In this document: one piece after another, positions 3,001 to 6,000 of the stretch | Layout: every line of letters begins with the position of its first letter | How positions within the stretch are numbered: the first letter of the stretch is position 1 | Assembly (NCBI RefSeq): GCF_016903815.1 | Contig: NZ_CP069973.1 | Length of the DNA stretch: 64,000 nucleotides | Strand: one strand, 5' to 3' | Source of the DNA: Escherichia coli | GTDB lineage: Bacteria > Pseudomonadota > Gammaproteobacteria > Enterobacterales > Enterobacteriaceae | Position numbers: made by a program

Positions 3001-6000
3001 ATAAACTGAATCATCTTGAAGAAAAACTCCACCGTGTTGACCAGGTTCAGCGGGCGCAGTTACATCTTGAGCAGATATTCTCATGGTGGAGCGCCGGGCG
3101 ATATGCGTCATTTTCCCCTGCCGGACGTTGTTATGTGGCACTTGAAGAGCTTCGCTGGGGCGCGTTTGGTGATGTGATACGTCAGAGCGAAACAGGCCAG
3201 GTTAACCAGCTACTGGATATTCTCAGACATAAAGCATTAACGCAGATGGCACAGGAGAGTGGCGGTAGTGCAACCGTGCGTCTGAACACTCTGGACTGGC
3301 TTGGTGGTCAGGGCCGGGAGCAGGCAGATAACGAGTGGCATGACGCGATTAACTGGCTGGGAGACTGGTGCAGTGAAGAGCAGCATCCGGTGATCTGGTC
3401 AACCACGCAGGCTGCAGAACACTTACCGGTTCGCATGCCTCGCCTCTGCTCTGCAGAACGCCTCTCTGAAAGTATGGTCGATGAAATATTTCAGAAGGGG
3501 GCTGCATGAGTACAGAAATGAAAACGGGGCTGGTGCTGTCCGGTGGCGGGGCGGTGGGCGCTTATCAGGCGGGAGTGGTTAAGGCACTGGCAGAGTGTGG
3601 TACACAGATCAGCATGGTTTCAGGGGCCAGCATTGGCGCATTCAATGGTGCCATTATCGCGGCCTCTCCCGATCTGTCAGAAGCTGCCGTACGCCTGGAG
3701 GCGCTCTGGGATCATCTGGGGAATAATCAGGTGCTGTCGGTAAACAGATTGGTTTACTTTTCATTGCTGAAAAAATTGTTCCAGGCAATGAACCTCTGCC
3801 AGATCCCCGGACGTGCAGGAGCACTGCTTACGACGCTTCTTCGCCATATATCGACAATCAACGGGTTTGACAATCTGATGGCTCAGCCGTTGTTGTCAGA
3901 TGAGCCCCTGACAGCGCTGATGGATCATTATCTTGATACTGATGCTCTGGCAGACGGGCTACCGCTGTATGTGTCGCTGTACCCCACAGAAGGGGGCATG
4001 CAGGATATTATTGACTGCATTCGTGCTGAACTGGGTGTCGGAACCACGAAAAACGCCGTTTTTCAGCATATCCAGAGCCTGCCCCGCGGACAGCAGAAAG
4101 AGGCTCTGCTTGCGTCAGCCGCGCTGCCCCTGCTGTTCCGTCCCCGTGAGGTTCAGGGGACAATGTTCGGTGATGGTGGTATGGGAGGATGGCGAAATAT
4201 GCAGGGAAATACCCCTGTGACGCCTCTGGTCGATGCCGGATGCAATATGGTGATTGTGACGCATCTGAGTGACGGTTCTTTATGGGATCGCCAGGCTTTT
4301 CCGGACACCACAATCCTTGAGATCCGTCCCCGGAAAAGGCTGAAATATGCAGGTGATGGTGGCAACAGCGGCGGTCTGCTCAGTTTTACATCGGCACATA
4401 CCGACGCCTGGCGTCAGCAGGGCTATGAAGACACGATGCTGGCGATGGAGCATATCCGGAAACCGCTGGCAGCACGTCAGGCACTGACCCGGTCAGAGGC
4501 GGTATTGCAGAAAAGCCTGGATATAACGGAAGAGGCAGATTTGGCACTGAGAAACGCGATGGCCCGGATTAAATAAAGACGCCCCAAAGAAACGCCACCG
4601 CCTGTGGTGGTGTTTTTCCTGTCTGGTGTTATTGAAAATATTTTCAGATATATATTACCTGAGAGAAAGTTTTACCCCTCACCTGTCAATTCACTCACTG
4701 GAAATTTAATTATGAAATTACCTGTAAAGTTATTAATGAGCCTTATATCTCTGGTCAGCGTTATTGCACGTGCCGGGGAATATAAAAATTACAGCCGGGA
4801 TGAAATAAAATACTGGCGATATACATCATACAAGGGGGGGAAACTTCCGGAAGGTTTCACTGATGAGAAATTTTCCAGCGCCATTTACAACGGAAGAATA
4901 TTTACAATGAAACGTTTACATACCCTTATGTTATTTCTGGCGGTTCTGTTCACGGGCTTTAACTTTAACGCAGAAGCGGCTACCGTAAAACAAGCTCTTA
5001 GTTGTAACCCAGAAGCCTGGGCTGAACAACCTGGAGCGTGTCCATCAACGTACGAGTTGTACGAAGGTGACGCTACCTACAAAGCCGCTATCGACAAAGC
5101 ATTAAAACCGGTCGGACTGAGCGGCATGTTCGGTAAAGGCGGCTATATGGATGGCCCTGGTGGAGGTATCACGCCAGTAAACATTAACGGTACAGTCTGG
5201 TTCCAGGGCGACGGTTGCAAAGCCAATACCTGCGGCTGGGACTTTATCGTAACACTCTATAACCCAAAAACCCATGAAGTTGTTGGCTACCGTTACTTTG
5301 GTTTAGATGACCCGGCCTACCTGGTTTGGTTCGGTGAAATTGGCGTGCATGAATTCGCGTATCTGGTGAAAAACTACGTAGCTGCGGTTAACTAATTTAA
5401 GGAGTCTATCATGAAAACTTTTATCAAAACTTTACTCGTTGCTGTAACTATTCTGTTCTCTGTCTTCGCTACTGCGAAACAAGTAAAACTGCCAAATAAC
5501 ATCAAATACGTTAATACTACAGAAGCGTTTTCCTGTACCGAAATTGACGGTATGAATTGCCAGACAAAGAATCAGTTCAACTATAAAGATAACAGCTATG
5601 TTTTCGTGCTTGAACGTGGTGGTGCCTGGTGCTACGACTACACTGTCTCGGTAGTTAACCTGAAAACCGGGAAAGCACAAATGATTGAATACGGGGACAA
5701 TCAACTGTGCTCAGGTAGCAACAAACCGTTCTTCGAAATCAAAAATGGCGTACCGACGGTAGGAGTCATCGACACATCCGGAAAACCTGTCGTTGTAGCC
5801 CAGGACAAACTTAAAATCTAAGGAGTAAACCATGCGTTTCTCTGCACATTATTAATATCAAAGGTAAATACAGCCCCAGCCATTGTTACCGGAAAGCCGC
5901 TTAATGCGTGGCTCGCCAGTGAAAGGCCTCTCAGACAATAAACCTTATTCATTTCACCCGTCAGGCCGCGTCTTCTCCGGGAGACGCGGCTTTTTTCATT

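What the first reader, a model, noticed from the sequence alone, without database searches (positions are those of the whole stretch)
4834..4840. G7 homopolymer fuses a 65-codon secreted ORF in frame to the downstream secreted protein; a 1-G change would restore a coupled two-gene arrangement
Seen in sequence: the ORF starting at ATG 4712 (signal peptide MKLPVKLLMSLISLVSVIARA) runs in frame through a G7 tract (4834-4840) into ATG 4907, giving a protein with two signal-peptide-like segments, which is unusual. Removing one G shifts the frame so that the first ORF ends at TGA 4908-4910, overlapping ATG 4907 as ATGA, a classic translationally coupled pair. Adding one G terminates at TGA 4861-4863. 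The tract is therefore a potential slipped-strand switch, or a frameshift or sequencing error hiding a small upstream gene.
Basis: seen in the sequence. Interest (0 to 1): 0.45.

Follow-up and report, generated by a model that had tools for sequence, protein, structure and literature searches.

The report
Gene stub fused to Ivy-like gene
The run of seven Gs lies in the leftover front end of a mostly deleted gene that a ~0.7 kb deletion joined in frame to the next gene, a lysozyme-inhibitor-like secreted protein; this explains the two signal peptides, and nothing indicates a purpose-built on/off switch.

Summary

- **The 65 upstream codons are a gene remnant.** They are the 5' stub of a 180-aa secreted-protein gene that is still intact in a few E. 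coli (49% identity, no gaps, same frame on both sides of the tract).
- **A ~0.7 kb deletion made the fusion.** It removed the rest of that gene and a 128-aa gene, and joined the stub to the last ~7 bases before the next gene's ATG.
- **The downstream gene is Ivy-like.** It is a 162-aa Ivy-superfamily periplasmic protein, and all its homologues start at their own signal peptide.
- **The stub is not under protein-level selection.** Its changes are nearly all non-synonymous and one allele carries a stop. Gene C has pN/pS 0.06-0.35.
- **G7 is derived.** The ancestral codon was TGG, and other alleles read GGGGTGG, GTGGGGG or AGGTGG.

In 5,426 complete genomes this allele type is G7 in 1266, G6 in about 27 and G8 in 43. 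A control G7 tract gave 4056, 48 and 2. So slippage is real, recurrent and tolerated, but this is not a switch and not an error hiding a gene. This is ordinary island decay and of low interest.

The parts
4596..4612 (+). Terminator-like hairpin plus T run after the patatin-like gene. It marks the 5' limit of the transcription unit that holds the stub, gene C and gene D.
4631..4658 (+). Conserved AT-rich element, possibly a promoter box. It is shared with the undeleted locus and recurs upstream of YfjT-family genes elsewhere.
   Evidence: window 4580-4659 matches L009 1969-2048 at 97.5%. Window 4631-4658 matches L013 916-943, and window 4636-4671 matches L014 1519-1554. The strict sigma-70 scan found nothing here, so the function is inferred only.
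4712..4900 (+). 5' remnant (63 codons) of a 180-aa secreted-protein gene ('gene A'). It includes gene A's signal peptide (4712-4774, MKLPVKLLMSLISLVSVIARA).
   Evidence: BLASTP against L009:2098-2640 gives E = 4e-18 with 31/63 identical and no gaps. Changes between alleles are almost all non-synonymous, and allele L017 has a TGA stop.
4834..4840 (+). G7 homopolymer inside the remnant (codons AAG GGG GGG AAA). It derives from an ancestral ...GG(G/C) TGG... (Gly/Asn-Trp).
   Evidence: Other alleles read GGGGTGG, GTGGGGG, AGGTGG, or G8AA (in frame).
4861..4863 (+). TGA reached when the tract is G8, giving a 50-aa product.
4892..4896 (+). Weak Shine-Dalgarno-like GGAAG, 10 nt before ATG 4907. It is made of gene-A codons (Gly-Arg), because gene C's own SD was lost or replaced by the deletion.
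   Evidence: Anti-SD duplex energy is -3.5 kcal/mol here, against -5.7 to -8.2 at gene C in the loci that lack this deletion.
4894..4901 (.). Deletion junction. Homology to gene A ends at about 4893-4900, and homology to the region upstream of gene C begins at 4900. About 0.7 kb is missing relative to the L009-type layout.
4907..5395 (+). Gene C, a 162-aa Ivy-superfamily periplasmic protein with its own signal peptide (4907-4978, MKRLHTLMLFLAVLFTGFNFNAEA). TGA 4908-4910 in the -1 frame lies within its first codons.
   Evidence: Homologues of 160-161 aa start at MKRL. A profile of the family hits PDB Ivy structures at E ~ 6e-8. The AlphaFold2 model has pLDDT 87, and its top 8 Foldseek hits are all Ivy, with target-normalised TM 0.63-0.73. 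pN/pS is 0.06-0.35.
5216..5233 (+). The Cys104-Cys109 loop CKANTC of gene C. It corresponds to the CKPHDC inhibitory loop of classical Ivy, but this allele has no His.
   Evidence: The motif is cited from PMC3660660.
5411..5821 (+). Gene D, a 136-aa secreted protein with no family match. It has a strong SD and travels with gene C in related loci.
5963..5992 (+). Terminator-like hairpin that closes the unit.

Best explanation
The 227-aa ORF is a chimera made by a deletion.

**Origin (shown).** In this E. coli island (dynamin-like GTPase, RdcB-like protein, patatin-like protein, then DUF932, antirestriction and RadC genes), the inferred ancestral cassette after the patatin gene was gene A (180-aa secreted protein), gene B (128 aa), gene C (160-aa Ivy-like periplasmic protein) and gene D. 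A ~0.7 kb deletion removed codons 64 onward of gene A and all of gene B. The breakpoints fall in short similar strings (GGAAGAAT and GGAGAAT). The deletion joined the gene-A stub to the last ~7 nt before gene C's ATG, and the join happened to be in frame. That is why the ORF has two signal peptides.

**The tract (shown).** The stub is no longer maintained as protein. G7 arose within it by a TGG>GGG change. It slips by +/-1 at a low rate, and these changes are tolerated.

**Expression (inferred).** The functional product is the Ivy-like protein made from its own ATG 4907, although that ATG now has a weakened ribosome-binding site. Translation from ATG 4712 through the stub yields either an aberrant fusion (G7) or short peptides (G6, G8). 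Tract length could incidentally change how many ribosomes reach ATG 4907. There is no sign that this has been selected as a switch.
For: **Homology of the stub.**
- The 65 aa align to the N-terminus of the intact 180-aa gene in L009 (E = 4e-18, 49% identity, no gaps, across the tract).
- Family members carry NGWKLPEGYT...IYKGRIRNNFPW.

**Junction.**
- blastn and alignments place the junction at 4894-4901.

**Native start of gene C.**
- All 160-161-aa relatives, and the distant relatives that score on Pfam Ivy, begin at the MKRL-type signal peptide.
- In L013 and L014 gene C follows an intact 128-aa gene B, and in L009 it follows a gene B pseudogene.

**No protein-level selection on the stub.**
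- Window versus L017 gives 13 non-synonymous to 2 synonymous changes plus a TGA stop.
- Window versus CFT073 gives 5 to 0.
- Gene C has pN/pS 0.06-0.35.

**The tract is not conserved.**
- Other alleles read GGGGTGG, GTGGGGG, AGGTGG and G8AA.

**Population counts.**
- Window-type allele: G7 in 1266, G6 in about 27, G8 in 43.
- CFT073-type allele: in-frame G8 in 791, G7 in 17, G9 in 5-8.
- The +/-1 variants lie on several different flanking haplotypes, including inside the O157:H7 clone.

**Other disruptions are tolerated.**
- IS elements interrupt the stub: IS3 at its start codon and IS1 a little further in.

**Gene C is Ivy-like.**
-.
Against: - The in-frame state holds in about 95% of genomes. 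This could reflect selection for the fusion rather than recent common descent.
- Gene C's own SD was lost and the replacement is weak and badly spaced (-3.5 kcal/mol, 10 nt). Its translation may therefore depend on ribosomes arriving from ATG 4712, which would make the frame of the tract matter.
- The stub is far less diverged at the DNA level (0.5-9%) than gene C (4.5-30%). That could mean nucleotide-level constraint rather than mosaic recombination.
- G8 is about 60-fold more frequent here than at a control G7 14 kb away (43/1336 against 2/4106). I have not explained this.
- No expression data were available.
Confidence: 0.8

Rival explanations
1. Contingency locus. Slipped-strand changes of the G tract toggle expression of the Ivy-like protein. 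G7 gives a mis-targeted fusion, G6 gives ATGA-coupled native expression, and G8 gives early termination.
For: - Tract length varies recurrently on different haplotypes.
- Off-length alleles are about 4-fold more common than at a control G7 (5.2% against 1.2%).
- Gene C's own SD is weakened, so upstream translation could matter.
- The CFT073-type allele keeps an even longer G8 run in frame.
Against: - About 95% of genomes are in one state.
- The run is interrupted by T in at least three alleles, and the ancestral codon is TGG.
- The stub evolves without protein-level constraint and carries a stop or IS insertions in some strains.
- From general knowledge, G7 in mismatch-repair-proficient E. coli slips far more slowly than known phase-variable tracts.
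- Assembly errors at homopolymers cannot be excluded for some of the variants.
Confidence: 0.07
2. The 227-aa fusion is itself the functional, selected product. The gene-A signal peptide drives export, and the 44-aa linker plus the second hydrophobic segment acts as an anchor or pro-region.
For: - PGAP annotates the fusion as the CDS in more than 2000 genomes.
- The frame is kept in diverged alleles despite changes in the tract region.
- The SD at 4907 is weak.
Against: - Non-synonymous changes dominate in the stub: 13:2 and 5:0, with about 20 non-synonymous to 3 synonymous unique changes by my manual tally.
- Frameshift, nonsense and IS alleles of the stub coexist with an intact gene C.
- No homologue outside this deletion lineage has any N-terminal extension.
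- By inference, a second hydrophobic segment following an exported segment would tend to act as a stop-transfer signal and leave the disulfide-containing Ivy domain in the cytoplasm.
Confidence: 0.12
3. A sequencing or assembly error, or a recent frameshift, at the homopolymer hides a genuine small upstream gene that ends at the ATGA overlap.
For: - Homopolymers are error-prone.
- The -1 frame gives a neat ATGA overlap.
Against: - The identical G7 sequence is found in 1266 complete genomes from many laboratories and platforms.
- The amino-acid sequence after the tract in the G7 frame (KLPEGFTDEKFSSAIYNGRI) is homologous to intact gene A (KLPEGYTVEDFTAAIYKGRI). The G7 frame is therefore the authentic one.
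Confidence: 0.01
4. Programmed -1 ribosomal frameshifting on G GGG GGG delivers ribosomes to the ATGA overlap and so couples translation.
For: - The tract is formally an X XXY YYZ heptamer in the zero frame.
- The -1 frame ends exactly at ATGA.
Against: - There is no significant downstream structure (80 nt, z = -1.5, with 18 of 200 shuffles folding as well).
- The heptamer is absent from several alleles.
- The stub is not conserved as coding sequence.
Confidence: 0.02

Closest known systems
Chimeric ORFs and gene remnants produced by deletion in decaying genomic islands (E. coli CP4-type islands that carry DUF932, antirestriction, RadC and CbtA/CbeA genes)
   Same: The island context matches. 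The same cassette shows progressive loss through deletions, IS insertions and frameshifts in different strains. The annotation pipeline calls the longest ORF.
   Different: Here the deletion happens to be in frame. It is found in about 42% of complete E. coli genomes (2284 of 5426), whereas the L009-type undeleted layout is in only 26.
Ivy, inhibitor of vertebrate lysozyme (Pfam PF08816; PDB 1GPQ, 1XS0, 1UUZ, 4PS6)
   Same: Gene C shares the fold (Foldseek probability 1.00, target-normalised TM 0.63-0.73). It matches at the profile level (E ~ 6e-8). It has a Sec signal peptide and a short loop between two conserved cysteines at the same position.
   Different: The window protein alone does not reach any Pfam threshold. 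Its loop is CKANTC rather than CKPHDC (PMC3660660) and varies between alleles. It has an extra N-terminal helical part with two more conserved cysteines. Its activity is untested.
Homopolymer-driven phase-variable (contingency) genes of Neisseria, Haemophilus, Campylobacter and Helicobacter
   Same: There is a poly-G run inside an ORF whose +/-1 changes alter the reading frame, and some length polymorphism among strains.
   Different: The tract is short, recently derived, interrupted in sister alleles, and lies in an unconstrained gene stub. One state dominates at about 95%. No within-strain heterogeneity could be examined.
Translationally coupled gene pairs with an ATGA overlap
   Same: The G6 variant would formally create this geometry.
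   Different: The overlap is not ancestral. In relatives, gene C is preceded by a separate gene B that ends in TAA, followed by a 14-18 nt spacer with a real SD.

Membership tests
Slipped-strand phase-variable (contingency) locus | Homopolymer or short tandem repeat within or just 5' of an ORF, so that +/-1 unit changes the frame | tested here: met
   G7 at 4834-4840. G6 and G8 change the stop position.
Slipped-strand phase-variable (contingency) locus | Tract length polymorphic among strains well above the background for similar tracts | tested here: inconclusive
   Off-length alleles are 70 of 1336 (5.2%) here against 50 of 4106 (1.2%) at the control G7 at 18442-18448. The excess is almost entirely G8. 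The counts are not corrected for phylogeny, and assembly error cannot be excluded.
Slipped-strand phase-variable (contingency) locus | Uninterrupted repeat conserved across alleles and relatives | tested here: not met
   Other alleles read GGGGTGG, GTGGGGG and AGGTGG, and intact gene A has GGC/GGT TGG.
Slipped-strand phase-variable (contingency) locus | The switched coding sequence is a functional gene under selection | tested here: not met
   The stub has pN/pS of 1 or more, a nonsense allele and IS-disrupted alleles.
Slipped-strand phase-variable (contingency) locus | Length heterogeneity within a single culture or read set | not testable with these tools
   No read data were available.
Gene A family (180-aa secreted protein: P0039, P0040, L009:2098-2640) | Significant sequence homology including the signal peptide | tested here: met
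   BLASTP E = 4e-18, 49% identity over 63 aa, no gaps.
Gene A family (180-aa secreted protein: P0039, P0040, L009:2098-2640) | Full-length domain (residues 64-180, including the conserved C-terminal Cys-containing part) | tested here: not met
   Homology stops at codon 63 and the rest is deleted. The feature is a remnant, not a family member in the functional sense.
Ivy (PF08816), for gene C at 4907-5395 | Match to the family profile | tested here: inconclusive
   The window protein alone gives no Pfam hit. Distant homologues P0056, P0058, P0061, P0062, P0068 and P0070 score 22-33 bits against a gathering score of 21. A profile of the gene C family hits the PDB Ivy chains at E = 6e-8 to 5e-7.
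Ivy (PF08816), for gene C at 4907-5395 | Ivy fold | tested here: met
   The AlphaFold2 model has pLDDT 87.3. Its top 8 Foldseek PDB hits are all Ivy, with probability 1.00 and target-normalised TM 0.63-0.73.
Ivy (PF08816), for gene C at 4907-5395 | Conserved CKPHDC loop with the His that enters the lysozyme active site | tested here: not met
   The two Cys are invariant (C104, C109), but the loop is CKANTC in the window. Some alleles have CKAHAC. The motif is cited from PMC3660660. The role of the His is from my own knowledge of the Ivy-lysozyme structures.
Ivy (PF08816), for gene C at 4907-5395 | Inhibition of C-type lysozyme or lytic transglycosylases | not testable with these tools
   This needs a biochemical assay.
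Translationally coupled ATGA gene pair | Upstream ORF terminates at a stop overlapping the downstream start, in the frame that is conserved in relatives | tested here: not met
   This is true only for the rare G6 variant. Homology shows that the G7 frame is the ancestral one.
Programmed -1 ribosomal frameshift site | Slippery heptamer plus a downstream stimulatory structure, both conserved | tested here: not met
   The heptamer is formally present but absent from sister alleles. The downstream fold is not significant (z = -1.5).

The most novel reading that the evidence does not exclude
The accidental fusion may have been co-opted. Gene C lost its own ribosome-binding site in the deletion, so its output could now depend on ribosomes that start at ATG 4712. 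Slippage between G6, G7 and G8 would then set three expression states of an island-borne Ivy-like inhibitor: ATGA-coupled, fused or mis-targeted, and uncoupled. That would make it a nascent contingency locus in E. coli. The unexplained excess of G8 alleles on several haplotypes would be its footprint.
Probability: 0.05. Interest if true: 0.5.

Novelty: new member of a known kind. Interest (0 to 1): 0.15.

Why it matters
The main value is practical.
- A 'hypothetical protein' annotated in over 2000 complete E. coli genomes (WP_000775500.1 and its allelic variants) is a deletion chimera.
- Its real functional part is probably a 162-aa Ivy-like periplasmic protein that starts 65 codons downstream.
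- The +/-1 'frameshifted pseudogene' calls in about 4-5% of genomes therefore probably do not inactivate that protein.
- It is also a clean example of how an in-frame deletion creates a two-signal-peptide ORF, and of how a point mutation in dead sequence creates a slippery homopolymer.

It does not open a new mechanism.

Tried and rejected
- **Direct family scans.** Pfam and NCBIfam scans of the 227-aa, 162-aa and 136-aa proteins gave no family at or near threshold.
- **Single-sequence PDB search.** This gave only noise. The Ivy link needed distant homologues and a profile.
- **L013 and L014 proteins.** The 192/193-aa proteins upstream in these loci are unrelated to the stub.
- **Spurious repeat-protein hits.** The CBM_X2 and WD40 repeat proteins in the representative search look like chance matches, not relatives.
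- **Promoter scan.** The strict sigma-70 scan found no promoter between the terminator and ATG 4712.
- **RNA structure.** The fold downstream of the tract is not significant, so I dropped a frameshift-stimulator reading.
- **2009C_3689 allele.** Its gene-C pN/pS values are not usable, because that allele carries frameshifts or an internal stop that break the codon alignment.
- **Literature.** A search for the RefSeq accession found nothing.
- **Haplotype test for G8.** The sampled G8 alleles sit on at least three SNP backgrounds. This argues against a single clone but does not separate recurrence from recombination.
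Full report
**1. The observation**

- GGGGGGG occupies 4834-4840.
- ATG 4712 opens an ORF that runs in frame, 65 codons later, into ATG 4907 and on to the stop codon at 5393-5395. The product is 227 aa.
- The product has two signal-peptide-like segments: MKLPVKLLMSLISLVSVIARA and MKRLHTLMLFLAVLFTGFNFNAEA.
- Removing one G ends the first ORF at TGA 4908-4910, which overlaps ATG 4907. 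Adding one G ends it at TGA 4861-4863.

A G7 run is not surprising by itself. About 1.8 G runs and 3.0 C runs of 7 or more are expected in this window, and two are seen.

**2. Context**

The window is E. coli chromosome. It holds a CP4-type island followed by ORFs that, from my own knowledge, look like the his, O-antigen and colanic-acid regions. I did not annotate that part.

The island encodes, in order:
- a 798-aa ORF whose homologues in related loci are dynamin-like;
- an RdcB/YjcZ-like protein (2604-3509) and a patatin-like phospholipase (3506-4576);
- the 227-aa ORF and a 136-aa secreted protein (5411-5821);
- DUF932 (6042-6863). Related loci then carry antirestriction, RadC and DUF987/CbeA genes at the matching positions, and the window has ORFs of matching size.

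Terminator-like hairpins at 4596-4612 and 5963-5992 bracket the 227-aa and 136-aa genes. RefSeq annotates the 227-aa ORF as a hypothetical protein, WP_000775500.1. It annotates the +/-1 variants as 'frameshifted' pseudogenes.

**3. What the upstream 65 codons are**

Homologues of the 227-aa ORF fall into two classes.
- Proteins of 223-227 aa carry a nearly identical N-terminal extension.
- Proteins of 160-161 aa begin exactly at MKRL.

I looked at the DNA upstream of the short class.
- In L009 the patatin gene is followed by an intact 180-aa secreted-protein gene ('gene A', L009:2098-2640). Next come a decayed copy of a 128-aa gene ('gene B') and then gene C.
- In L013 and L014 gene B is intact and ends 14-18 nt before gene C's ATG.

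The window's 65 aa align to the N-terminus of gene A with E = 4e-18, 31 of 63 identical and no gaps. The alignment runs straight across the tract. Other family members read ...NGWKLPEGYTVEDFTAAIYKGRIRNNFPW..., against the window's ...KGGKLPEGFTDEKFSSAIYNGRIFT|MKRL.

DNA comparison supports the same picture (alignments).
- Window 4580-4659 matches L009 1969-2048 at 97.5%.
- Window 4839-4893 matches L009 2225-2279, which lies inside gene A.
- Window 4900-5380 matches L009 2994-3468, which is gene C plus 7 nt upstream.

So a deletion of about 0.7 kb, with its junction at 4894-4901, removed the rest of gene A and all of gene B. It left the stub joined in frame to gene C. The breakpoints lie in short similar strings: GGAAGAAT in gene A and GGAGAAT, the SD region of gene C.

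This explains the two signal peptides. It also shows that the G7 frame is the authentic ancestral frame, so no frameshift or sequencing error is hiding a gene. The ATGA 'overlap' is only ATG plus the first A of the Lys codon that every family member has.

**4. Is the stub still a gene?**

I compared six alleles by the Nei-Gojobori method.

| Comparison | Stub | Gene C |
|---|---|---|
| Window vs L017 | 13 non-synonymous : 2 synonymous | pN/pS 0.25 |
| Window vs CFT073 | 5 : 0 | pN/pS 0.20 |
| Window vs Z1323 | 1 : 0 | pN/pS 0.06 |
| All usable pairs | ratio 1 or more wherever defined (pairs with 2009C not counted) | pN/pS 0.06-0.35 |

- By my manual tally, the six alleles carry about 20 non-synonymous (one nonsense) and 3 synonymous unique changes in the stub.
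- The L017 allele has TGG>TGA at codon 35 of the stub with gene C intact.
- In strain D8 an IS3 sits at the stub's start codon. In strain 300709 an IS1 truncates the stub.

The stub is therefore not maintained as protein, while gene C is.

One oddity remains. The stub's DNA differs by only 0.5-9% between alleles whose gene C differs by 4.5-30%. I attribute this to a single origin of the deletion followed by recombination that swapped gene C alleles between island copies. Nucleotide-level constraint is not excluded.

**5. The tract itself**

Intact gene A has GGC/GGT TGG (Gly-Trp) at this position. Stub alleles read AGGTGG (L017), GGGGTGG (2009C_3689, L019), GTGGGGG (Z1323), G7 followed by AAA (window) and G8 followed by AA (CFT073, same total length, in frame). 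The uninterrupted run is therefore a derived T>G change in dead sequence.

Exact-match counts in 5,426 complete E. coli genomes:

| Tract | -1 G | Reference length | +1 G |
|---|---|---|---|
| Window-type allele | G6: about 25-27 | G7: 1266 | G8: 43 |
| CFT073-type allele | G7: 17 | G8: 791 | G9: 5-8 |
| Control G7, intergenic core DNA 14 kb away (18442-18448) | G6: 48 | G7: 4056 | G8: 2 |

- Off-length alleles are thus about 5% here against 1.2% at the control. Almost all the excess is G8.
- The variants sit on several flanking haplotypes. These include a G6 inside the O157:H7 clone, and G6, G7 and G8 all found next to the same patatin and RdcB protein alleles.
- One variant (O145 RM8988-C1) lost an A from the adjacent A3 run rather than a G.

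I read this as ordinary, recurrent slippage that is tolerated because nothing depends on the stub's frame. Some assembly error is probably mixed in. The dominance of one state (about 95%) and the interrupted tracts in sister alleles are not what a contingency locus looks like.

**6. What gene C is**

- The window protein alone hits no Pfam, NCBIfam or PDB entry.
- An exhaustive HMMER search found 25-38%-identical relatives. Six of the nine I scanned score above Pfam's gathering threshold for Ivy, PF08816.
- All of these relatives begin with a signal peptide that aligns with MKRL, and none has an N-terminal extension like the stub.
- A profile of the family hits the four distinct Ivy sequences in the PDB (1GPQ, 1XS0, 1UUZ, 4PS6) at E of about 6e-8 to 5e-7.
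- An AlphaFold2 model has pLDDT 87 and pTM 0.79. Its eight best Foldseek PDB matches are all Ivy, with target-normalised TM 0.63-0.73.
- The two cysteines that frame Ivy's inhibitory loop are invariant. The loop itself is CKANTC here, against CKPHDC in classical Ivy (PMC3660660), and it varies between alleles: CKANAC, CKSNAC, CKSDAC and CKAHAC.

Gene C is thus an uncharacterised Ivy-superfamily periplasmic protein. It needs Sec export from its own signal peptide.

**7. How the locus most likely works**

*Shown:* the deletion origin, the lack of constraint on the stub, purifying selection on gene C, and the native start of the family at MKRL.

*Inferred:* the useful product is made from ATG 4907. 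The caveat is that the deletion took gene C's real SD.
- What remains is GGAAG, 10 nt upstream and made of gene-A codons. Its duplex energy with the anti-SD is -3.5 kcal/mol, against -5.7 to -8.2 at gene C in the loci that lack this deletion (L009, L013, L014).
- ATG 4712 is equally weak at -3.3 kcal/mol.

Ribosomes arriving from 4712 could therefore matter. If so, tract length would modulate gene C output as a side effect. I give a selected switch about 5-7%. I give the reading that the fusion itself is the functional product about 12%.

Programmed -1 frameshifting on G GGG GGG is formally possible. It lacks a stimulatory structure (z = -1.5) and is not conserved.

**8. Distribution**

- The stub is present in 2284 of 5426 complete genomes.
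- The L009-type undeleted layout, gene A plus decayed gene B plus gene C, is in only 26.
- Other strains show further decay, such as ISEc12 truncating gene C in strain JJ1887 and fragmented gene A copies.

**9. Verdict**

The feature is an in-frame deletion chimera with a secondarily evolved, mildly unstable homopolymer in its dead half. This is ordinary island decay. It is useful for correcting annotation and of low scientific surprise.

Noticed in passing
window 4907-5395, loop at 5216-5233: Gene C is an uncharacterised, island-borne Ivy-superfamily protein present in about 40% of E. coli genomes. The loop between its two invariant cysteines differs between alleles (CKANTC, CKANAC, CKSNAC, CKSDAC, CKAHAC), whereas classical Ivy has CKPHDC. 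This could reflect different targets or an arms race.
   Followed up: partly
window 4631-4658; L013:916-943; L014:1519-1554: An AT-rich element of about 28 nt (ttgaaaatattttcagatatatattacc) upstream of the stub recurs upstream of YfjT-family secreted-protein genes in unrelated contigs. It may be a shared promoter or regulatory box for these small secreted-protein cassettes.
   Followed up: no
window 4712-4906 versus 4907-5395: Between alleles the stub differs by 0.5-9% at the DNA level, while the adjacent gene C differs by 4.5-30% (synonymous divergence 0.16-0.63). This points to mosaic recombination between island copies or to nucleotide-level constraint on the leader.
   Followed up: partly
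window 18442-18448 (control G7) versus 4834-4840: The intergenic core G7 tract shows strongly deletion-biased variation (48 G6 against 2 G8 in 4106 genomes). The stub tract shows an excess of G8 (43 against 27 G6 in 1336). The roughly 60-fold difference in G8 frequency is unexplained.
   Followed up: partly
window 5411-5821: Gene D is a 136-aa protein with a signal peptide and a strong SD. It matches no Pfam or NCBIfam family and always travels directly after gene C in related loci (L013, L014, L016, L019).
   Followed up: no
L007 (strain D8), L021 (strain 300709), L008 (strain JJ1887): IS elements hit this small region repeatedly. An IS3 sits at the stub's start codon, an IS1 lies upstream of or within the stub, and ISEc12 truncates gene C in strain JJ1887.
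   Followed up: no
P0041 and P0043 (gene A family); L009:2290-2305: Intact gene A has its own small C4 run (aacttcccctgg). The 100-aa frameshifted variants of the family diverge at this point, so this may be another decay hotspot in the same cassette. I did not check their DNA.
   Followed up: no
window 4844-4853: A perfect 10-nt palindrome, CTTCCGGAAG, lies 3 nt downstream of the G tract. It is conserved in all stub alleles except the CFT073 type (TTTCCGGAAG). It has no evident function.
   Followed up: no
window 4871-4897: In the predicted mRNA fold, UUUUCC (4871-4876) pairs with GGAAGA (4892-4897), which contains the SD-like GGAAG. This would sequester the weak SD of gene C unless upstream translation opens the stem. 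The fold is not statistically significant (z = -1.5).
   Followed up: partly
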